Made by a program: the position numbers and the translations under genes. DNA of 64,000 bases from Acidimicrobiia bacterium (GTDB lineage Bacteria > Actinomycetota > Acidimicrobiia > Spongiisociales > UBA11373), in NCBI GenBank assembly GCA_016932695.1, contig JAFGCH010000016.1:1709-65708 (forward strand), read 5' to 3'. Shown here piece by piece: positions 5,274 through 64,000 of the stretch. The first letter of the stretch is position 1; each line of letters opens with the position of its first letter. The notes under the pieces were generated by a model. It worked only from the letters and a program-made list of their open reading frames with translations. It did no database searches and was not told the origin of the DNA.

Positions 5274-6487
5274 GCGATCGACCCGAGCTCGAGCAGTCTC
5301 CGGAGGAGAAGAAGCCCGGGCGTCTCGGCAGCCGCCTGTTCCGGGAGATCACCGGGGTGGGCGTCGACTGGCGCAGCGCGATGCTGGTCCCCCTCCTGGC
5401 GGTGATCACCGCCCTCATCGTCAGCGCGGTGATCATCGCCATCACCGACGTTGATGCGCTGCGCATGTGGGGCAGCAAGCCGGGTGAGGCCGCCGCCGAG
5501 ACGTTCGGCACCATTCGCGATGCCTACGTGGCCCTGTTCAAGGGCGCTTTCTGGGGCCTCAAGGCGTTCTCCGAAACCCTGATTGCCGCCGCGCCCCTGA
5601 TCCTGACCGGGCTGTCGGTGGCCATCGGCTTCCGGGCGGGCCTCTTCAACATCGGGCCCGAGGGGCAGATGCTCATGGGCGGCCTGGCCGCCACCATCAT
5701 CGGCTTCTACTTCGATCTCCCCGCCGTCATCCACCTGCCCTTCGCCCTGTTGGGCGGCCTCGTGGCCGGGGCCATCTGGGGCGGCATCCCCGGCCTGCTA
5801 CGGGCCAAGACGGGAGCCCATGAGGTCATCACCACCATCATGTTGAACTGGATCGCCATCCGGTTCATCGACTGGGTGTTGAAGACCAGTTTCGTCCAGC
5901 AGGGCGGGCGCCAGGACCCGGTTTCCAAGAACGTCCGGCCCAGTGCCCTCTTGCCCCGGTTCTTCGACGACCCCACCATCCGCCTCCACGCCGGGGTCAT
6001 CGTGGCCCTGCTGGCCGCCGCCTTCATCTTCTGGCTGCTGTATCGCACCACGATTGGCTATCAGTTCCGGGCGGTGGGCTACAACCCCGATGCGGCGCAC
6101 TACGCCGGCATGAAGGTCACCTGGATGTACGTGCTGGTCATGGCCATTGCCGGGGGTATGGCCGGCCTGGGCGGGGCCAACCAGATCCTCGGGCCCCTGG
6201 TCCGGGCTACCCCAGGGTTCTCCGCGGGCATCGGCTTCGACGCCATCGCCCTGGCGCTGCTGGGTCGCTCCCATCCGGTGGGAGTGGTCCTGGCCGGCCT
6301 GCTGTTCGGGGCTTTGGAGGCGGGAGGCCGTGAGATGCAGGTGGCCACCGACGTGTCCATCGACCTCATCTTGGTGGTGCAGGCCTTGATCGTGGTGTTC
6401 ATCGCCGCTCCGGCGCTGATCCGGGCCATCTACCGGGTGCGCACCGGTGGCGAAGCAGAGCGGATCACTAAGGGGTGGGCGGCATGA
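5270..6487 (+). CDS. Nucleoside ABC transporter permease
   Basis: GLFNIGPEGQ, HEVITTIMLN, GFDAIALALLG; GTGA overlap with the ATPase gene. Confidence 0.92.
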   Translation: MSDRPELEQSPEEKKPGRLGSRLFREITGVGVDWRSAMLVPLLAVITALIVSAVIIAITDVDALRMWGSKPGEAAAETFGTIRDAYVALFKGAFWGLKAFSETLIAAAPLILTGLSVAIGFRAGLFNIGPEGQMLMGGLAATIIGFYFDLPAVIHLPFALLGGLVAGAIWGGIPGLLRAKTGAHEVITTIMLNWIAIRFIDWVLKTSFVQQGGRQDPVSKNVRPSALLPRFFDDPTIRLHAGVIVALLAAAFIFWLLYRTTIGYQFRAVGYNPDAAHYAGMKVTWMYVLVMAIAGGMAGLGGANQILGPLVRATPGFSAGIGFDAIALALLGRSHPVGVVLAGLLFGALEAGGREMQVATDVSIDLILVVQALIVVFIAAPALIRAIYRVRTGGEAERITKGWAA

Positions 6488-20112: not shown

Positions 20113-20185
20113 AGCCGGGTGCCGGAGTCGAACCGGCGACATCCGCTTTACAAGAGCGGTGCTCTGCCGTCTGAGCTAACCCGGC
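20113..20185 (-). tRNA. tRNA-Thr(UGU), CCA not encoded
   Basis: Cloverleaf GCCGGGTTAGCTCAG..., anticodon loop CTTGTAA, T-loop GGTTCGACTCC. Confidence 0.95.
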
Positions 20186-38082: not shown

Positions 38083-38155
38083 TGCCCCCGGCAGGATTCG
38101 AACCTGCGACACACGGTTTAGGAAACCGCTGCTCTATCCCCTGAGCTACGAGGGC
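38083..38155 (-). tRNA. tRNA-Arg(CCU), CCA not encoded
   Basis: GCCCTCGTAGCTCAGGGGATAGAGC, anticodon loop TTCCTAA, GGTTCGAATCC. Confidence 0.95.
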
Positions 38156-57942: not shown

Positions 57943-59346
57943 TCAGCAGCTGACGAAGGCGCCCGTACCGGTGCCGAAGCTGCGGATGCGAGCGCTCGCG
58001 GCGGGGGGATCGGAGGGCGGATTCGCGAAGCGGCCGTTGTTGTAGCTCAGGTTTTCGTGGTACCAGAAGGCTACGCCGTCCGGATCCAGGTCGAAGCGTG
58101 CCCCCATCTCCTCGAAGTCGGCCCAGCGCCAGGCGGGGCGGATGCCGCCGGCGAAGAACAGCCAGTCCGGCAGGTCCTGGAGGTCGTTGACTTCCCAGCC
58201 GTCGAACTGCCGGGAACCGTTGCGGTCGGTGAAGATGGCGGTGAAGCCGTCCCAGGTGATCTCCTGCCAGTCGGCTCCGCTGCACGGGCTGGAGAACCAG
58301 CCGGTGGAGTCATCCGGGGTGCCGAACAGCAGGGTCAGGGAGGCTCGGGCTTCGGCTGCAGGCGTGCCGAAGGCGACCTCGCCGACACCCTGCCGGGAGG
58401 CGAGCACGATGTCGGATTCGCCCGAGACCACCTCTTCCAGCAGACGCTGGGTCTGCGGGCCCGCCTTGCCGTCGACGTCGAGGCGGTAGTCGCGCTGGAA
58501 GAGGCCCACCGCCTCCTCGGTCTCCTCGTCGTAGGTGCCCCCGCCGGCTCCGCCGTAGTAGCCCAGTTCGGCCAGGGTTTGTTGCAGGGCGGCGATGTCT
58601 TCGCCCTCATCCCCGGGGCGCAGGATGCCGTCGTCGGAGACGGTCTCGCACTCCAGGGTTCCGGTGAAGGTGCATTCGATCTCGCCGGTGTAGGCGGCGA
58701 CGGGCTCCCCCCCGCCGAAGTAGTCATCGGCCGGGAAGACGGATACCCCGGCGATGAAGTGCGCCGACCCGGTCCAGTCGAACACTTTGGGCGCCAACTC
58801 GAGCGCAGCGAGGTGCTCGACGCGGCGGGCCTGGTAGTCCGTGGTGGTCTCCAAGTAGGCGAGGATCGAGGCGTAGTCGATCACCACGTAGGGGTTCCAG
58901 CCCCCCAACCCCCGCCCGTACAGGACCAGGGCTTGGTAATCGGGGGCATAGGGGCCTTCGGTGAACGAAACTTGAAGGAGCATCTGATCGCTGTTGAGGC
59001 CGGTGATGGTCGGCATCGGATCGGGAAGGCGGAGGGAGAGGCGGGTGCCGGTCCCGTCGAGGGTGTCCTGCGACACCACCTCGTCTTGCTGCGGGTTGCG
59101 GTAGCGCATCTGGTGAGACCCCGTGTCCCGCAGCGGGTCGGCGACCGGATCGGCCAGCAGGGGGGCTAGGGGGCCGGTGTCGGGCGCCGCGGTGCTCGTG
59201 CTCGTCGTGCTCGTCGTGGAGGTCGTTAGGGCTTGGGTCGTGGTGGTCGTCGAGGCTTCCGCGGTGGTCGAGGTCCCGGTGCCGCCGCAGGCGGCAGCGC
59301 AGAGGGCTACCACGAGCAGCAGGGTGAGCCGGCGAGCGGCGGGCAT
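57943..59346 (-). CDS. Lipoprotein with a peptidoglycan-binding domain
   Basis: GGAGG SD; lipobox AAAC; Thr linker; LRPGDEGEDIAALQQTL..FQRDYRLDVDGKAGPQT. Confidence 0.85.
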   Translation of the reverse strand: MPAARRLTLLLVVALCAAACGGTGTSTTAEASTTTTTQALTTSTTSTTSTSTAAPDTGPLAPLLADPVADPLRDTGSHQMRYRNPQQDEVVSQDTLDGTGTRLSLRLPDPMPTITGLNSDQMLLQVSFTEGPYAPDYQALVLYGRGLGGWNPYVVIDYASILAYLETTTDYQARRVEHLAALELAPKVFDWTGSAHFIAGVSVFPADDYFGGGEPVAAYTGEIECTFTGTLECETVSDDGILRPGDEGEDIAALQQTLAELGYYGGAGGGTYDEETEEAVGLFQRDYRLDVDGKAGPQTQRLLEEVVSGESDIVLASRQGVGEVAFGTPAAEARASLTLLFGTPDDSTGWFSSPCSGADWQEITWDGFTAIFTDRNGSRQFDGWEVNDLQDLPDWLFFAGGIRPAWRWADFEEMGARFDLDPDGVAFWYHENLSYNNGRFANPPSDPPAASARIRSFGTGTGAFVSC

Positions 59347-59449
59347 GGAGCCTCCGAGAGGACGAAACGCTGCTCGGAAGGTAGCAAGCCTCGCGCGGTT
59401 GTGCCGATGGGCGGGGCCATTTGGGCCCGGGCCCCGCTAGCCTTCCCGG

Positions 59450-59660
59450 CAACGGAGAAAGGAGGTGGTCCAACAGTGATAGGCAGTTCTTACAGGACCC
59501 CGGAGGTGGCCGGGCGCTAAGCGGCCATCACAGGGGTGGCCGCTCCCCGGGGACGACCTCGGGGTAGGTGGCGACTCCAACCCGGACCACCGGGCCCGGA
59601 GATCCGTCAGTTGGTCCTCTGGCGGCGGCGGCGACGCTGAAGTGTCTCCGGGCCTGTCCG
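59450..59660 (+). ncRNA. Candidate structured RNA/small-ORF transcript of unknown family
   Basis: TAGCCT -10-like at 59438; extended SD; five hand-folded helices with G-U pairs and a GCGA tetraloop that work only on the plus strand. Confidence 0.5.
59476..59520 (+). CDS. Putative 14-aa peptide MIGSSYRTPEVAGR
   Basis: GTG preceded by AGAAAGGAGGTGGTCCAACA; TAA stop. Confidence 0.5.
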   Translation: MIGSSYRTPEVAGR

Positions 59661-59671
59661 CGTCCCGGGGG

Positions 59672-60223
59672 TCAGTGGCGGGCAGCTTCCTGCTGCAGTG
59701 CCTCCAGCAGGCGGCGGATCTGGGAGCGGAAGCGCTCGTCGACCAGGTGCCCGGCGGCATCGAAGCGGCTCTCGGCGGAGTCGATCAGCACCTCGGGCAG
59801 GCCCACCACCCGTACCCGGTTGTGGCGCAGTATCTCGCGCAGGTGCGTCTGCGCCCGTACCGTGCCGAAGCGGCCGCCCGCCCCCAGGATGGCTGCCGGC
59901 TTGCCCCGCAGCGGGGAGGCTTCCCCGCCGCGCGAGGCCCAGTCGAGGGCGTTCTTGAGCACGCCGGGGATCGACCAGTTGTACTCCGGCGTGGCGACCA
60001 GCAGGGCGTCCGCCGCGGCGATGGCCTCCCGGAGGCGGGTTACCTCGTGGGGCAGCCCGGCCGCCTCCACATCCGCGTCGAAGTGGGGGATGCCGTGGAG
60101 GGTCATCACCTCCAGCACCATGCCTGGCGGAGCCAGGTCGGTCGCGGCTCGCAGGGCGGCGGTGTTGAAGGACGCGCCGCGCAAACTGCCCGAGATGGCG
60201 AGGACGCGTAGAGGTGGAGTCAG
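59672..60223 (-). CDS. NADPH-dependent FMN reductase, probable CTG start
   Basis: LRVLAISGSLRGASFN, ATPEYNWSIPGVLKNALDW; conserved N-terminus lies upstream of the first canonical start. Confidence 0.88.
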   Translation of the reverse strand: MTPPLRVLAISGSLRGASFNTAALRAATDLAPPGMVLEVMTLHGIPHFDADVEAAGLPHEVTRLREAIAAADALLVATPEYNWSIPGVLKNALDWASRGGEASPLRGKPAAILGAGGRFGTVRAQTHLREILRHNRVRVVGLPEVLIDSAESRFDAAGHLVDERFRSQIRRLLEALQQEAARH

Positions 60224-61870: not shown

Positions 61871-64000
61871 ACGCCGAAGCGCCTCTCGTCCTTCGCCAGC
61901 CCCCTCCTGCCGCGCCTGGAACCGCTGGCACTGGCCGGCCTGGCCGGGCACGCCACGCTGTTGTGGGCTCTCGGCGACCGCGGGGTGTGGGTCTGGTCGG
62001 GCAGCGGCATCCTGGCGCTGCTCGGGGTGCTGGCGCTCGCCGGGCTGGTGAAGCCGTGGGGGCAGTGGTGGGTCCTGCTGCGGGGTGGCTTGGGCGTGGC
62101 GGTGCTGCTGCTGTTCGGCCAACTGACCGGGGCCGTGCCCGGCCAGTTGGAGGTGTGGTTCGGGGTGCTCGCTTTCACCTATCCCCTGGTCCTGGCCGGG
62201 GGCCGGGCGGTGGCGGTGCCGGTGGTAGTCGGCGGGTCCTATGCGGCCGCTCTCCTGCTCGCCGAGGCCCCGCCGAGCCCGGCGGCAGCTTCGATCCGAG
62301 GTTTGGTCGTCCTGTTCGTGGGGTCGGCGGCCTGCTTGCTGGGCGCAGGTGCTCGGCATCTGCTGGGGGAGCAGGGCCGCGCCGCGGGCCGGCTGCACGA
62401 GGCCGAAAGGGTCTTCGCGGCCGCTTTCGAGGGGGCCTCGAGCGGCATGGCGGTCCTCGAGCTGGACGGGGCCCTGCTTCAGGTGAACCAGGCCCTGTGC
62501 GATCTGCTCGGTCATCCCCGTGAGGAGCTGGTAGGGACGCCATGGTCTTCCCATCTCCAACCCGACGATGCCGGGCACTACGCCGAGGCGGTCGCTCACC
62601 TGCTCGCCGGTGAGTCGTGGACCATCCAGCGCGAGGTGCGGCTGCGCCTGAAGGAGCGGCGTTTGGCTTGGGGGCTGTTGGGGATGTCCCTGGTGCACGA
62701 TGCCGCGGCGCGTCCCCGCTACCTGTTCCTCCACGTCACCAACCTCACCGACCGGGTGCGCACCGAGGGCCGGCTGCGCCAGAGCGAATCCCATTTCCGC
62801 AACTTGTTCGAGAGCTCTCCGATCCCGCTGTGGGAAGTGGATCTGACCGGCCTGGTGTCTCAATTCGAGCGCTGGCATGCCGAGGGCACCAGCGACCTCG
62901 CCGCCTTCCTCCAGTCTCGACCCGACCAGGCCCACCTGGCGGTGGCAGGGGTGACGGTGCGACGCGTCAACGAAGCCGCCTGCGCCCTGTTCGGGGCGGC
63001 GGGGGCAGAGGACTTCACGCGGGCACTGGCCTCCGGGGCACTGGGCCCCGGTTATCTCGAGGCGGTGATCACCCAGGCGGATGCCGTCTGGCACGGCCGG
63101 ACCCACCACGAGATCAAAGTCGACCTGGGGGACGGAGGCGGCGGGACCCGCACCGGCACCCTCCGGGTGGTGGTCCCCGCGATCGAGGGCCGGCCCGACG
63201 TTTCCTCGGTGGTAGTGGCCTTCACCGACCTCACCGATCATCTCCGAGCGCGCGACCAATTGCGCCGGGTCGAGGACCGGCTGCGCACCGTGATGGCCGG
63301 CGCTCCCATCGTGGTGTTCGCCGTCGACGAGCACGGGGTATTCACCTTCTCCGAGGGACAGGGCCTGCGAGCCCTGGGCCTGGCGCCGGGGGAGGCGGTG
63401 GGGCGCTCCCTCTTCGAGATGTATCGGGGGTCGCCCGGGATAGTGCAGGCGATGCGCCGGTCGCTGGCGGGAGAGACCTTCCGCGGCACCCTGAGCGTCG
63501 ATGAGCTGATCTTCGACACCCACTTCTCCCCGATGTGGGAAGAGGGCCGGGTGGTGGGTGTCATCGGGGTCTCCCACGACATCACCGAGCAGGCCCGGGC
63601 CTCGGACAATCTGCGCCAGCTGGTGCGCGCCAAGGACGAGTTCGTGGCGACGGTCAGCCACGAGCTGCGCACCCCGCTGACGGCGGTGGTGGGCTTCTCC
63701 CATGAGCTACGGGATCGTCTCGACCGCCTGGAAGCCGATGAGGTGCGCACCTTCATCGACCTCATCGGCGACCAGGCCACCGAAGTTGCCGACCTAGTCG
63801 AAGACCTGCTGGTGGCGTCGCGGCTGGACCTGAACGAGGTGGCCGTCACCCGGGACGCCATCCACCTGTGGAATCAGGTGGACGCGGTGCTGGTGGCGCG
63901 TCGCCTGGGCAAAGAGGTCACCACCGTGCGTCACGAGGCCGAGGCCAAGGTCTTCGCCGACCCGGTCCGGGTGCGCCAGATCTTCCGCAACCTGGTGGCC
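61871..64000 (+). CDS. Membrane multi-PAS sensor histidine kinase (3' end outside window; start uncertain)
   Basis: Open frame absent from the ORF track: TM region, three PAS-like segments, KDEFVATVSHELRTPL, DPVRVRQIFRNL. Confidence 0.9.

What the first reader, a model, noticed from the sequence alone, without database searches (positions are those of the whole stretch)
59438..59660. Candidate ribosome-capturing small RNA: 17-nt 16S-complementary leader, 14-codon ORF and structured 3' domain
Seen: an isolated intergenic element, divergent from one neighbour and convergent with the other. A -10-like TAGCCT (59438) precedes AGAAAGGAGGTGGTCCA (59456-59472), then GTG-ORF MIGSSYRTPEVAGR-TAA. Downstream are hairpins 59520-59544 and 59545-59564 and a three-way junction (59592-59603/59644-59655, arms 59604-59625 and 59626-59639 with a GCGA loop). 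The G-U pairs and GNRA loop work only on the plus strand. Known: the actinobacterial 16S 3' end is UGGAUCACCUCCUUUCU, so the leader could pair over 17 nt with one G-U, far beyond a normal SD. Very long SDs occur in Bacillus type I toxin mRNAs and STAB-SD stabilisers, but this peptide is not hydrophobic. Inference: a 30S/70S-binding (sponge, storage or stabilised) RNA or a micropeptide system; I do not recognise it as a named family.
Basis: partly seen in the sequence, partly recalled or inferred. Interest (0 to 1): 0.85.

Follow-up and report, generated by a model that had tools for sequence, protein, structure and literature searches.

The report
Ribosome-loading small RNA, Ms_IGR-5 family
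This is a real, stand-alone, highly folded small RNA that belongs to an already catalogued but functionally unexplained actinobacterial RNA family, and it carries a ribosome-docking leader and a tiny conserved reading frame threaded through its own knotted fold.

Summary
Window 59450-59662 (+) holds a roughly 210-nt structured RNA gene. Its leader AGAAAGGAGGTGGTCCA (59456-59472) is complementary to the 16S 3' tail, followed by a 14-codon GTG ORF and a three-way junction.

It is not nameless. It is a divergent member of Rfam RF02471, Ms_IGR-5. It scores 25.9 bits against a cut-off of 45, as a full-length, unique hit in the genome, and relatives link it to members above the cut-off. I found no function for this family in the papers I could search.

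New here:
- Covariation supports P1, P3, PC and the junction. It also supports a pseudoknot between the sORF's GGACC and the junction loop GGUCC.
- The leader is left unpaired in this model.
- In 116 of 116 distinct family sequences the frame is open. It begins with a canonical (94) or near-cognate (22) start and ends at the same place in TAG, TGA or TAA.
- The conserved residues coincide with helices, so the act of translation, not the peptide, looks selected.
- Metatranscriptome contigs of close relatives cover only the element.

A ribosome-sponge role remains unproven.

The parts
59438..59443 (+). -10-like hexamer TAGCCT of the element's own promoter
   Evidence: One search shows the hexamer. 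In one search, TANNNT sits at the same offset (-20 to -23 from the GGAGG block) in 31 of 60 family sequences. By eye, most of the others have a CANNNT-like or TGTGGCA-type box there. The consensus sigma-70 scan found no promoter.
59450..59662 (+). The whole RNA gene (about 210 nt), a divergent Ms_IGR-5 (RF02471) family member
   Evidence: RF02471 match at 59451-59662, 25.9 bits, model positions 1-184, E = 5.3e-4. It is the only hit in the genome. Conservation block. RNA-library contigs of relatives cover 59458-59662 only.
59453..59455 (+). P1, 5' strand (pairs with 59500-59502)
   Evidence: pair types at A2 columns 4:57 are CG27/AU13/GC11/GU3/UG2/UA1. At 5:56 they are CG22/GC20/AU9/UA2. 0 of 500 shuffles reach the covariation score.
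59456..59472 (+). Leader AGAAAGGAGGUGGUCCA, complementary to the 16S 3' tail; unpaired in the covariation-supported model
   Evidence: 17 bp, -30.8 kcal/mol. GGAGGTGG is nearly invariant in 60 sequences. AAGGAGGTGRTCC occurs only twice in the 2.44-Mb genome, the other time inside a CDS.
59476..59520 (+). sORF GTG...TAA, 14 sense codons (MIGSSYRTPEVAGR)
   Evidence: In 116 of 116 distinct sequences the frame is open. Starts are canonical in 94 and near-cognate in 22. Stops are TAG 81, TGA 18, TAA 17. The +1 and +2 frames carry stops in 76 and 99 sequences.
59495..59499 (+). PK, 5' strand GGACC (codons Arg-Thr of the sORF); pairs with the arm-1 loop 59613-59617
   Evidence: 95.3% of cells paired; column 50:214 is GC54/CG5/AU1. 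One search gives matched variants: GGACC-GGUCC 38, GGACU-AGUCC 12, GGACA-UGUCC 5, GGACG-CGUCC 8, GGAUG-CAUCC 5, CGACC-GGUCG 4, AGACC-GGUCU 2.
59500..59502 (+). P1, 3' strand
59505..59513 (+). P3, 5' strand GGUGGCCGG (codons Glu-Val-Ala-Gly region); pairs with 59582-59591
   Evidence: column 64:180 is GC42/AU10/GU5. One search gives matched variants, e.g. GGUGACUGC/GCAGUCACC, GGUGUCCGU/ACGGACACC, GGUGGCUAC/GUAGCCACC; helix 3 has 94.1% of cells paired.
59515..59519 (+). PC, 5' strand CGCUA (last sense codon plus the first two letters of the stop); pairs with 59569-59573
   Evidence: helix 4 has 97.2% of cells paired. The same helix is in Rfam's own consensus structure. By eye across the phylum the strands match as CGC/GCG, UGC/GCA and GGC/GCC.
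59520..59544 (+). Hairpin H1
   Evidence: helix 5 has 93.7% of cells paired and 2 pairs with compensatory change (77:97 is GC24/AU4).
59545..59564 (+). Hairpin H2 (variable in length)
   Evidence: In one search, helix 6 has only 62% of cells paired in 3 counted pairs, in a poorly aligned stretch.
59569..59573 (+). PC, 3' strand UGGCG
59574..59581 (+). Conserved single-stranded joint ACUCCAAC (GA[A/C]UCC motif across the phylum); partner unknown
59582..59591 (+). P3, 3' strand CCGGACCACC (looks like the GAUCACC part of the 16S tail)
   Evidence: It could also pair with the leader's GGUGGUCC (86.5% of cells paired, no compensatory change).
59593..59603 (+). Three-way junction, basal stem 5' strand (pairs with 59644-59655)
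   Evidence: helix 7 has 98.6% of cells paired and 8 of 12 pairs with compensatory change.
59604..59625 (+). Arm 1; its loop 59611-59618 holds GGUCC 59613-59617 (PK 3' strand)
   Evidence: helix 8 has 99% of cells paired and 5 of 7 pairs compensatory. Also.
59626..59639 (+). Arm 2 with GCGA loop
   Evidence: helices 9 and 10..
59644..59655 (+). Three-way junction, basal stem 3' strand; probable end of the transcript a few bases later
   Evidence: Contigs from RNA libraries end at 59657-59662 (contigs cannot prove an end).

Best explanation
The element is a stand-alone gene for a roughly 210-nt structured RNA. It is a divergent (Acidimicrobiia-type) member of the Rfam family Ms_IGR-5 (RF02471).

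Shown by comparison:
- The RNA folds into an H-type pseudoknot (P1 plus PK), two nested helices (P3, PC) around variable hairpins, and a terminal three-way junction.
- The long Shine-Dalgarno-like leader and the start codon lie in the unpaired pseudoknot loop.
- A 12-15 codon frame is always kept open. It runs through the 5' strands of PK, P1, P3 and PC and always stops inside PC.

Inferred mechanism:
- A 30S subunit docks on the leader through an unusually long pairing with the 16S 3' tail, 12 nt without melting anything and up to 17 nt in all.
- It initiates at GUG 59476.
- To read the sORF it must unzip the core, so the ribosome-loaded and the folded states exclude each other.
- The stop inside PC releases the ribosome before the 3' domain.
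- What matters is ribosome loading and passage: for stabilising the RNA, for switching its fold, or for reporting or holding ribosomes. The peptide sequence itself matters little.

The downstream cellular role is unknown.
For: Family membership:
- RF02471 gives a full-length match (model 1-184) at 59451-59662, E = 5.3e-4.
- It is the only hit in the 2.44-Mb genome, E = 5.9e-4.
- In 151 genomes of the phylum, 50 have a hit at E <= 0.01 and 19 score over the cut-off. All listed hits are full length, from 185.6 down to 21.9 bits.
- The hits in G025, G038 and G027 fall on the blastn homologues of the window's element.

Stand-alone gene:
- It is single copy.
- Neighbours are shared only among close kin. 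The largest flank cluster covers 11 of 60 loci.
- The downstream gene in the window is convergent.

Plus strand and structure:
- Fold z-scores are -4.46 (plus) and -1.69 (minus).
- Many G-U pairs are kept, e.g. UG in 26 of 30 sequences at 70:133.
- 25 of 57 pairs are compensatory.
- P1, PK and P3 covary across 60 sequences and again in the sequences from the genome-contig scan.

Frame (116 distinct sequences):
- The sORF frame has no internal stop in any of them. The other two frames have stops in 76 and 99.
- A stop codon sits at the same place in all 116 (TAG 81, TGA 18, TAA 17), never TGG.
- Starts are canonical in 94 and near-cognate (CTG, ATA, ACG, ATC, ATT) in 22.

Leader:
- It is nearly invariant and unpaired in the supported model.
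- The duplex with the relatives' 16S tail is 17 bp at -30.8 kcal/mol.

Expression:
- Contigs from 4 of 4 RNA libraries (3 studies), 90-95% alike, cover 59458-59662. They are bounded by adapter letters or contig ends, not by genomic flanks.
- Passages read: the family RNA is validated by RNA-seq in S. lividans (PMC8079986). It is an sRNA transcription unit in S. avermitilis (PMC8780764). It carries ribosome-profiling reads in M. abscessus and M. smegmatis (PMC4974804).
Against: - The window's copy is below Rfam's gathering score (25.9 against 45 bits).
- No experiment on this organism exists.
- Contigs cannot give strand, ends or level, and the laid contigs are from relatives, not this strain.
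- The same paper reports ribosome reads on 6C and F6, which are regarded as non-coding, so those reads do not prove translation.
- 22 of 116 sequences lack ATG, GTG or TTG at the expected place.
- The high stop counts in the other frames partly reflect fixed motifs such as GTGAGG.
- For 56 of the 116 sequences the search pattern imposed the T of the stop.
- All conserved residues coincide with helices or invariant RNA motifs. Ser is always AGU, Glu-Val always GAGGUG. An RNA-only reading of much of the 'ORF conservation' is therefore possible.
- A ribosome would have to melt four helices.
- A 17-bp duplex may not fit a productive initiation complex (inference from known 30S structures, recalled).
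- The consensus scan found no promoter or terminator.
- One complete relative (G009, 96% complete, 1 contig) has no copy by blastn or by RF02471 at E <= 1. The RNA is therefore dispensable in at least one lineage.
Confidence: 0.6

Rival explanations
1. Ribosome trap or sponge. The RNA binds 30S or 70S non-productively. A 17-bp leader-tail duplex and a pseudoknot at the mRNA entry site hold the ribosome at the start codon. The RNA thereby stores, titrates or protects ribosomes or the 16S 3' tail. The frame and stop are only a safety exit.
For: - The duplex of -30.8 kcal/mol is far above a normal SD.
- The leader and start lie in the loop of a covariation-supported pseudoknot. Its 5' strands begin 19 nt after the start codon.
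- The leader is nearly invariant across the phylum.
- A contig of depth 94 in one RNA library is a poor measure of level.
- The arrangement resembles 30S entrapment on the rpsO operator (recalled, not tested).
Against: - No binding data exist.
- One RNA per ribosome would need very high copy numbers, which nothing here measures.
- A pure trap would not need a start-like codon and an open frame of fixed end in 116 of 116 sequences.
- One relative lacks the RNA.
Confidence: 0.15
2. Micropeptide gene. The 12-15 residue peptide (…[R/W/G]-T-x-E-V-x-x-x) is the effector. The RNA structure serves only expression and stability.
For: - Conserved start, frame and stop.
- A strong SD.
- A recurring N-terminal x-[S/I]-[D/G]-S pattern in several lineages.
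Against: - The conserved residues map onto PK (GGAC), P1 and P3 (GAGGUG).
- Synonymous sites do not vary: GAG GUG is invariant in 60 of 60 sequences and Ser is always AGU.
- The last three residues vary (R/S/G/C; G/A/E/V/D; A/V/T) exactly as the P3 and PC partners vary.
- The 3' domain shows heavy covariation that an mRNA would not need.
Confidence: 0.12
3. Untranslated trans-acting or protein-binding sRNA. The SD-like leader acts only as a 5' stabiliser (STAB-SD-like) or as a seed for pairing with other RNAs. The 'ORF' is a by-product of the helices.
For: - Helices explain most of the sequence conservation in the ORF.
- 22 of 116 sequences have only near-cognate starts.
- The family was first recovered as an sRNA (Rfam description).
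Against: - No in-frame stop in 116 of 116 sequences and never TGG at the stop position. Yet UAG, UGA and UAA interchange, and a helix could accommodate UGG (pairing seen).
- The U of the stop is an invariant U-G pair that never becomes C-G.
- Start-like codons sit at a fixed place.
Confidence: 0.1
4. Cis-regulatory part of a neighbour: a minus-strand 5' UTR of the PG_binding_1 gene, or a leader of a downstream gene. Alternatively, a type I toxin mRNA.
For: - The region lies between the stop of 59672-60184(-) and the start of 57943-59346(-).
- The reverse complement carries CCUCC, which could mask that gene's GGAGG.
Against: - The minus strand folds no better than shuffles (z = -1.69).
- The conserved G-U pairs would be A-C on the minus strand.
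- The neighbours are not conserved with the element.
- The downstream plus-strand direction runs into a convergent gene.
- The peptide is not hydrophobic, the element is single copy and phylum-wide, and no antisense partner was seen.
Confidence: 0.03

Closest known systems
Rfam RF02471, Ms_IGR-5 (Actinobacteria sRNA; first reported from M. smegmatis by Li et al. 2013, a paper not held here)
   Same: - Full-length co-linear match.
- The same leader, the same GAGGUG block, the same PC helix and the same terminal stem plus arm 1.
- One copy per genome, and a continuum of scores across the phylum.
   Different: - The window's copy scores 25.9 bits, below the cut-off of 45.
- It has two central hairpins and a second junction arm that the mycobacterial type lacks.
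- Rfam's consensus structure pairs the leader GGUGGU with the sORF end. It has no P1, PK or P3. Covariation here favours P1, PK and P3 and leaves the leader free.
Rfam RF01867, CC2171 (Caulobacter/alphaproteobacterial sRNA; no inducing condition identified, per passages of bioRxiv 10.1101/2022.01.24.477521)
   Same: - A 5' leader GAAAGGAGGUG[G/A]UCCA directly followed by GUG and a short conserved ORF.
- A stand-alone sRNA ending in a hairpin.
   Different: - Only the leader and a terminal hairpin align (19.2 bits against a cut-off of 75).
- The Rhodobacteraceae examples encode a different peptide of about 18 residues (VSRVILERGVGTVR…) in another register.
- No shared core helices were shown.
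STAB-SD / ribosome-binding 5' stabilisers of Bacillus mRNAs (recalled: Agaisse and Lereclus 1996 and later RNase J work; not read here)
   Same: A long SD-like sequence within about 10 nt of the 5' end that could hold a 30S and shield the RNA from 5'-end-dependent decay.
   Different: - Here the SD is followed by a conserved start and frame.
- The complementarity (17 nt) covers the whole single-stranded 16S tail.
- Stabilisation was not tested.
rpsO (S15) translational operator pseudoknot, 30S 'entrapment' (recalled: Philippe 1993, Marzi 2007; not read here)
   Same: The SD and start codon are displayed in the loop of an H-type pseudoknot whose stems must open before the mRNA enters the channel.
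   Different: - No protein ligand is known.
- It is not upstream of a protein gene.
- The SD is much longer.
- This is analogy only.
Dual-function sRNAs (SgrS/SgrT, RNAIII/hld, SR1/SR1P; review PMC12310071 seen in a search listing only)
   Same: A small structured RNA that also carries a short translated frame.
   Different: In those RNAs the peptide is conserved as protein and usually lies apart from the regulatory part. Here the frame overlaps the structural core and the peptide looks unconstrained.

Membership tests
Rfam RF02471 Ms_IGR-5 | Covariance-model score at or above the curated gathering score (45 bits) | tested here: not met
   25.9 bits. E = 5.3e-4 on 531 nt and E = 5.9e-4 on the whole genome. 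Nothing reaches the gathering threshold in this region.
Rfam RF02471 Ms_IGR-5 | Full-length, co-linear, unique match to the model | tested here: met
   Model positions 1-184 of 184 at 59451-59662 (+). One match in G000.
Rfam RF02471 Ms_IGR-5 | Chain of homologues to members above the cut-off | tested here: met
   Blastn homologues in 40 of 41 genomes of the order, counting G000. RF02471 hits in G025 (36.8 bits), G038 and G027 lie on those homologues. 19 of 151 phylum genomes are over the cut-off, with scores running continuously from 185.6 to 21.9 bits. A single alignment of 60 sequences shares the leader, GAGGTG, GAATCC…CACC and GGTCC blocks.
Rfam RF02471 Ms_IGR-5 | Helices of the Rfam consensus (PC-like helix; terminal stem with arm 1) kept with covariation | tested here: met
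   PC has 97.2% of cells paired. The basal stem has 98.6% paired with 8 of 12 pairs compensatory. Arm 1 has 99% paired with 5 of 7 pairs compensatory. Rfam's first helix (leader with sORF end) shows mismatches in the window and I did not count it further.
Rfam RF02471 Ms_IGR-5 | Expressed as a discrete small RNA | tested here: inconclusive
   Contigs of 161-219 nt from 4 RNA libraries, 90-95% alike, cover 59458-59662 and end in adapter letters or contig ends. They are relatives, not this strain, and contigs show neither strand nor ends. Expression of family members is reported in passages read from PMC8079986 and PMC8780764.
Rfam RF01867 CC2171 | Covariance-model score at or above 75 bits over the whole model | tested here: not met
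   19.2 bits, E = 0.062. Only the leader and one hairpin align, and most of the model is skipped.
Type I toxin mRNA with long SD | Small hydrophobic or membrane peptide | tested here: not met
   The peptide MIGSSYRTPEVAGR and its relatives are polar or charged.
Type I toxin mRNA with long SD | Overlapping or adjacent antisense RNA antitoxin; patchy, often multi-copy distribution | tested here: not met
   Single copy and near-universal in the order. No conserved minus-strand structure. An antisense transcript as such was not testable.
STAB-SD-type 5' stabiliser | SD-like sequence close to the 5' end that binds 30S and prolongs RNA half-life | not testable with these tools
   The position fits. 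The leader starts about 6 nt after the predicted start of the RNA. Binding and half-life need experiments.
Dual-function (coding) sRNA | Translated ORF within a structured regulatory RNA | tested here: inconclusive
   The frame, start and stop are conserved in 116 of 116 sequences. Translation itself is not shown. Ribosome reads on the family are reported only in a passage that also lists non-coding RNAs.
Pseudoknot 'entrapment' operators (rpsO type) | SD and start codon in the loop of an H-type pseudoknot | tested here: met
   P1 (3-6:55-58) and PK (50-54:210-214) on alignment A2 have the strand order a, b, a', b', with no gap between b and a'. Both covary.
Pseudoknot 'entrapment' operators (rpsO type) | A ligand (ribosomal protein) that stabilises the pseudoknot and blocks the 30S | not testable with these tools
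   No candidate partner. Neighbours are not conserved.

The most novel reading that the evidence does not exclude
Ms_IGR-5 RNAs are ribosome-gated RNA switches or traps. A free 30S is captured through pairing with the whole single-stranded 16S 3' tail. It is held at the start codon by the P1/PK pseudoknot at the mRNA entry site. Only ribosome passage through the sORF unfolds the core. The RNA would thus measure, buffer or protect the pool of free ribosomes. On the Rfam hits found here, the system would also be shared by Acidobacteriota and Thermodesulfobacteriota.
Probability: 0.2. Interest if true: 0.85.

Novelty: new member of a known kind. Interest (0 to 1): 0.6.

Why it matters
Ms_IGR-5 is catalogued as an actinobacterial sRNA, and I found no function, target or mechanism for it in the papers I could search.

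This window adds three things:
- It adds a divergent Acidimicrobiia-type branch that Rfam's threshold misses.
- The comparison gives a concrete and testable anatomy. The leader matches the entire free 16S tail. A tiny frame has conserved boundaries but a free peptide sequence. A pseudoknot ties that frame to the 3' domain.
- These features revise the published consensus structure.

If ribosome loading really gates the fold, this would be an RNA that reads out or holds ribosomes. It could be studied at once in M. smegmatis or Streptomyces. The alphaproteobacterial CC2171 RNA has an almost identical leader, which hints that such leaders are a recurrent device.

Tried and rejected
Structure alternatives:
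- Local hairpin P2 (leader GGUCC with sORF GGACC, A2 columns 18-23:49-54) has 80.6% of cells paired. Where the sORF segment changes (CGACC, AGACC, GGACA/G), the 3' loop compensates and the leader does not. I rejected it as the main pairing. It remains possible as a transient alternative: leader GAUCC co-occurs with GGAU in 5 of the 13 sequences with that leader.
- Long-range pairing of the leader GGUGGUCC with 59584-59591 is what RNAalifold and the MFE fold predict. It has 86.5% of cells paired but no compensatory change. The same 3' strand covaries with the second GGUG block instead. I kept it only as a possible alternative state in this clade.
- RNAalifold pairs 59-64:75-80 and 54-57:138-141 were not kept, because H1 and P3 explain those columns better.

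Synteny:
- The first script picked wrong-strand ORFs in this GC-rich DNA.
- The first clustering was contaminated by ORFs overlapping the element.
- Only one search is used.

16S and other sites:
- The own genome has no 16S 3' end, so relatives were used.
- The second AAGGAGGTGATCC in the genome lies inside a CDS and is a chance occurrence.

Papers:
- Li et al. 2013 (PMC3527728) is not held.
- The review PMC4109619, Arnvig 2009, Shell 2015 and the PafBC paper gave nothing on this RNA.
- The search for the leader letters returned 16S primer papers.
- The search on the ribosome-sponge concept found 0 papers.
- Supplements are closed. Dataset S2 of PMC4974804 and the sRNA tables of the Streptomyces papers may hold coordinates or levels that I could not see.

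Sequencing runs:
- All 9 holders had a share of 0.05 of the sampled words. No habitat is claimed.
- Zero cover of 59300-59452 and the patchy cover beyond 59673 prove nothing, since relatives' flanks differ.
- Adapter letters directly before 59458 and 59459 in two studies, and their orientation in X9, would fit a plus-strand RNA whose cDNA starts there. Contigs cannot show this, so it is only a weak hint.

Full report
**1. What is there**

The intergenic stretch 59347-59671 lies between two minus-strand genes. One is a PG_binding_1 lipoprotein-like gene (57943-59346). The other is an FMN_red gene (59672-60184).
- TAGCCT at 59438-59443.
- AGAAAGGAGGTGGTCCA at 59456-59472.
- A GTG frame at 59476-59520 reading MIGSSYRTPEVAGR then TAA.
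- Hairpins at 59520-59544 and 59545-59564.
- A three-way junction at 59593-59603/59644-59655, with arms 59604-59625 and 59626-59639 (GCGA loop).

The plus strand folds far better than shuffles: -118.1 kcal/mol, z = -4.46, with 0 of 200 shuffles as good. The minus strand does not (z = -1.69, 9 of 200). The simple promoter and terminator scan found nothing.

**2. It is conserved, and it has a name**

At Rfam's curated thresholds the window has only two tRNAs. A permissive scan of 59250-59780 gives a full-length match to RF02471, Ms_IGR-5 ('Actinobacteria sRNA'). The match covers 59451-59662 (+), scores 25.9 bits against a cut-off of 45, and has E = 5.3e-4. A weaker match to RF01867, CC2171, aligns only the leader and one hairpin (19.2 bits against 75).

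- In the whole 2.44-Mb assembly this is the only RF02471 hit (E = 5.9e-4). The DNA is single copy.
- Blastn finds the element in 40 of 41 genomes of the order, counting G000. The one miss, G009, is a 1-contig genome that is 96% complete. It also has no RF02471 match at E <= 1.
- Across 151 genomes of the phylum, 50 have an RF02471 hit at E <= 0.01 and 19 are over the cut-off.
  - All listed hits span model positions 1-184, and 49 of the 50 genomes have a single hit (G060 has two).
  - Scores run without a break from 185.6 to 21.9 bits.
  - The hits in G025 (36.8 bits), G038 and G027 fall on the blastn homologues of the window's element.

I therefore file it as a divergent member of that family. 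The curated score criterion itself is not met.

**3. What is known of the family**

From passages read:
- Ms_IGR-5 is listed as validated by RNA-seq in S. lividans (PMC8079986).
- It is one of two sRNA transcription units with an Rfam match in S. avermitilis (PMC8780764).
- It is among sRNA homologues with ribosome-profiling reads in M. abscessus and M. smegmatis. It is listed there together with 6C and F6, and the authors themselves question coding (PMC4974804).

The original paper (Li et al. 2013) is not held. My searches found no function, target or structural study. Supplements were closed.

**4. Structure from covariation**

I aligned 30 order-level copies (A1) and 60 copies including 30 from across the phylum (A2).

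On A1 my structure has 94.3% of cells paired, against 33-45% when slid. Of 57 pairs, 25 show compensatory change, and 0 of 500 shuffles reach this. Hairpin 59545-59564 is weak in the counts.

Four further helices emerge.
- **P1** (59453-55 with 59500-02) covaries strongly on A2. Pair types include CG27/AU13/GC11 at one pair and CG22/GC20/AU9 at the next.
- **PK** pairs GGACC of the sORF (59495-99) with GGUCC in the arm-1 loop (59613-17).
  - 95.3% of cells are paired, and one pair reads GC54/CG5/AU1 with no mismatch.
  - Over the 60 sequences plus those from an independent scan, matched variants occur: GGACC-GGUCC 38, GGACU-AGUCC 12, GGACA-UGUCC 5, GGACG-CGUCC 8, GGAUG-CAUCC 5, CGACC-GGUCG 4, AGACC-GGUCU 2.
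  - The leader stays GGUCC throughout.
- **P3** pairs GGUGGCCGG (59505-13) with CCGGACCACC (59582-91).
  - A at column 64 pairs with U in 10 of the 12 sequences that carry it. The two A-C cells fall in rows that are shifted by one column there, and by eye all 12 have a U opposite.
  - G at that column is met by C or U.
  - Whole-strand variants match, e.g. GGUGACUGC/GCAGUCACC, GGUGUCCGU/ACGGACACC, GGUGGCUAC/GUAGCCACC.
- **PC** (59515-19 with 59569-73) holds the last sense codon and the stop. It is the one helix also drawn by Rfam.

P1 and PK have the strand order of an H-type pseudoknot, with no gap between the two 3'-side strands. The leader and start codon lie in its first loop.

The pairing of the leader with 59584-59591 that energy models predict is conserved as complementarity (86.5% of cells) but has no compensatory change. 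That 3' strand covaries with P3 instead.

These results hold without the four rows from unpublished genomes.

**5. The leader and the ribosome**

The own assembly lacks a 16S 3' end. Five of five relatives searched carry GGATCACCTCCTTTCT. In the two scanned with Rfam it sits at the very end of the SSU match.

The leader can pair with that tail over 17 bp (one G-U) at -30.8 kcal/mol. This compares with -8.7 for GGAGG and -14.0 for a 9-mer.

AAGGAGGTGRTCC occurs twice in the genome. The other copy is inside a CDS.

The leader block is nearly invariant in 60 sequences.

**6. The small frame**

In the 60 sequences a stop lies exactly three codons after GAG GTG in 60 of 60 (TAG 33, TGA 14, TAA 13). 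ATG, GTG or TTG is present in 49.

A pattern scan of genome contigs gave 120 stretches, of which 80 were listed. I excluded 17 listed rows that are non-actinobacterial or chance hits: L082, L084, L106, L109, L114-L117, L126, L132, L136, L138, L139, L143, L146, L152, L153. After duplicates are removed, the remaining sequences together with the 60 give 116 distinct sequences.
- In-frame stops between leader and conserved stop: 0 in the sORF frame, against 76 and 99 sequences in the other two frames.
- Stop codon at the conserved place: TAG 81, TGA 18, TAA 17.
- A start-like codon within the first three in-frame codons: canonical in 94 and near-cognate in 22 (CTG 12, ATA 4, ACG 3, ATC 2, ATT 1).

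Caveats:
- For the scanned set the pattern imposed GAGGTG and the T of the stop.
- Fixed motifs inflate the stop counts in the other frames.
- The sequences are related to one another.

Against a functional peptide:
- The conserved residues [R/W/G]-T-x-E-V are the PK, P1 and P3 strands.
- GAG GUG never varies at synonymous sites, and Ser is always AGU.
- The last three residues change as P3 and PC covary.

My reading is that the frame's existence and boundaries are selected. Its product is not, or is only weakly so.

**7. Independence and expression**

Flanking genes are shared only among close relatives. The largest cluster covers 11 of 60 loci and is a GNAT-like gene.

A -10-like TANNNT sits at a fixed offset in 31 of 60 sequences, and related boxes sit there in most of the others.

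Nine RNA-library runs held a small share of the words. Laying four of them (three studies) shows contigs 90-95% alike.
- X1: a 193-nt contig covers 59468-59662.
- X2: a 162-nt contig covers 59495-59630. A separate X2 contig lies on 59766-59800 in the right flank.
- X7: one contig covers 59458-59602 with adapter letters at both ends, and another covers 59461-59530.
- X9: a 219-nt contig of depth 94 covers 59459-59657, with adapter letters directly before 59459. Two further X9 contigs lie on 59628-59669 and 59701-59739, the latter in the right flank.
- In no run does a contig join the element to either flank.

This fits a discrete, well-expressed RNA of about 200 nt in close relatives. It shows neither strand nor true ends, nor anything about this strain.

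**8. Mechanism**

Shown:
- The fold.
- The free leader.
- The conserved frame running through PK, P1, P3 and PC.

Inferred:
- A 30S docks on the leader.
- The pseudoknot strands begin 19 nt after the start codon, at the edge of an initiating ribosome.
- Reading the 14 codons must open the core, and termination inside PC lets it refold.

Ribosome loading and the folded state would thus be mutually exclusive. The RNA could use this for its own stability, for switching, or for sensing or holding ribosomes. Which of these applies is open. A full 17-bp duplex may not be compatible with productive initiation (recalled structural knowledge). That keeps the trap reading alive.

**9. Beyond the finding**

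RF02471 also hits MAG contigs labelled outside Actinomycetota: Polarisedimenticolia (51.6 bits), Blastocatellia (49.6 and 41 bits), Thermodesulfobacteriota (34.7 bits) and Syntrophobacter (26.3 bits, cut by the contig end). Binning errors are possible.

Rhodobacteraceae hits of the pattern are CC2171-like (27-38 bits). They carry the same leader and a different sORF of about 18 codons. From passages read, the condition affecting CC2171 was not identified.

**10. Verdict**

- It is a new, divergent member of a known orphan RNA family.
- The family now has a revised and testable architecture.

Noticed in passing
L139:1777-1987, L153:1265-1496, L152:264-481, L082:7035-7233 (-), L138:1-131 (-): RF02471 (called an Actinobacteria sRNA) matches contigs of MAGs labelled Polarisedimenticolia (51.6 bits) and Blastocatellia (49.6 bits), both over the cut-off of 45. 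It also matches a second Blastocatellia contig (41 bits), Thermodesulfobacteriota (34.7 bits) and Syntrophobacter (26.3 bits, truncated). The family may reach beyond Actinomycetota, unless the bins are contaminated.
   Followed up: partly
L109:1731-1894, L143:2111-2296, L136:92-270, L115:1286-1472 (and L116): Rhodobacteraceae and Paracoccus loci match CC2171 (RF01867) below its cut-off. They carry GAAAGGAGGTG[G/A]TCCA followed at once by GTG and a conserved frame of about 18 codons, VSRVILERGVGTVR…. This is a second orphan sRNA family with the same 16S-tail-complementary leader.
   Followed up: partly
window 59451-59662 against the RF02471 consensus structure: Rfam's consensus structure pairs the leader GGUGGU with the sORF end and lacks P1, PK and P3. 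Covariation in 60 and more sequences supports P1, PK and P3 instead. The family's structure annotation may need revision.
   Followed up: yes
window 59458-59459: In two RNA libraries from different studies, the contigs of relatives begin at 59458 or 59459, directly after adapter letters. That is 15-16 nt after the -10-like box and downstream of the P1 5' strand. It could be a processed 5' end, or loss of the 5' end during library making. Contigs cannot decide.
   Followed up: no
G009 (same family, 1 contig, 96% complete): No copy of the element by blastn or by RF02471 at E <= 1, although its 16S tail is the usual one. The RNA is dispensable in at least one close lineage.
   Followed up: partly
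G000:C94:70140-70152 (outside the window; L072:1501-1513): This is the only other AAGGAGGTGATCC in the genome. It lies inside a long open frame (…RKEVIQASDRAGFIVNALLNPY…) that looks like a 3-hydroxyacyl-CoA dehydrogenase by eye, so it is a chance occurrence.
   Followed up: partly
window 59574-59581 and A2 columns 164-171: The unpaired joint GA[A/C]UCC is conserved across the phylum, and its partner is unknown. An AGU inside the pseudoknot loop (window 59485-59487) is also nearly invariant.
   Followed up: no
L117:5547-5636 and 5987-6211: A tRNA and a group II intron D1-D4-6 match (168.6 bits) lie on an unclassified MAG contig that carried a chance-like hit of the leader pattern.
   Followed up: no
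window 20113-20185 (-) and 38083-38155 (-): Two tRNA genes are the only Rfam matches at curated thresholds in the window.
   Followed up: no
window 61961-64000 (+): A long open-ended frame contains an H-box-like VSHELRTPL stretch and looks like a PAS-type sensor histidine kinase by eye. It was not searched.
   Followed up: no
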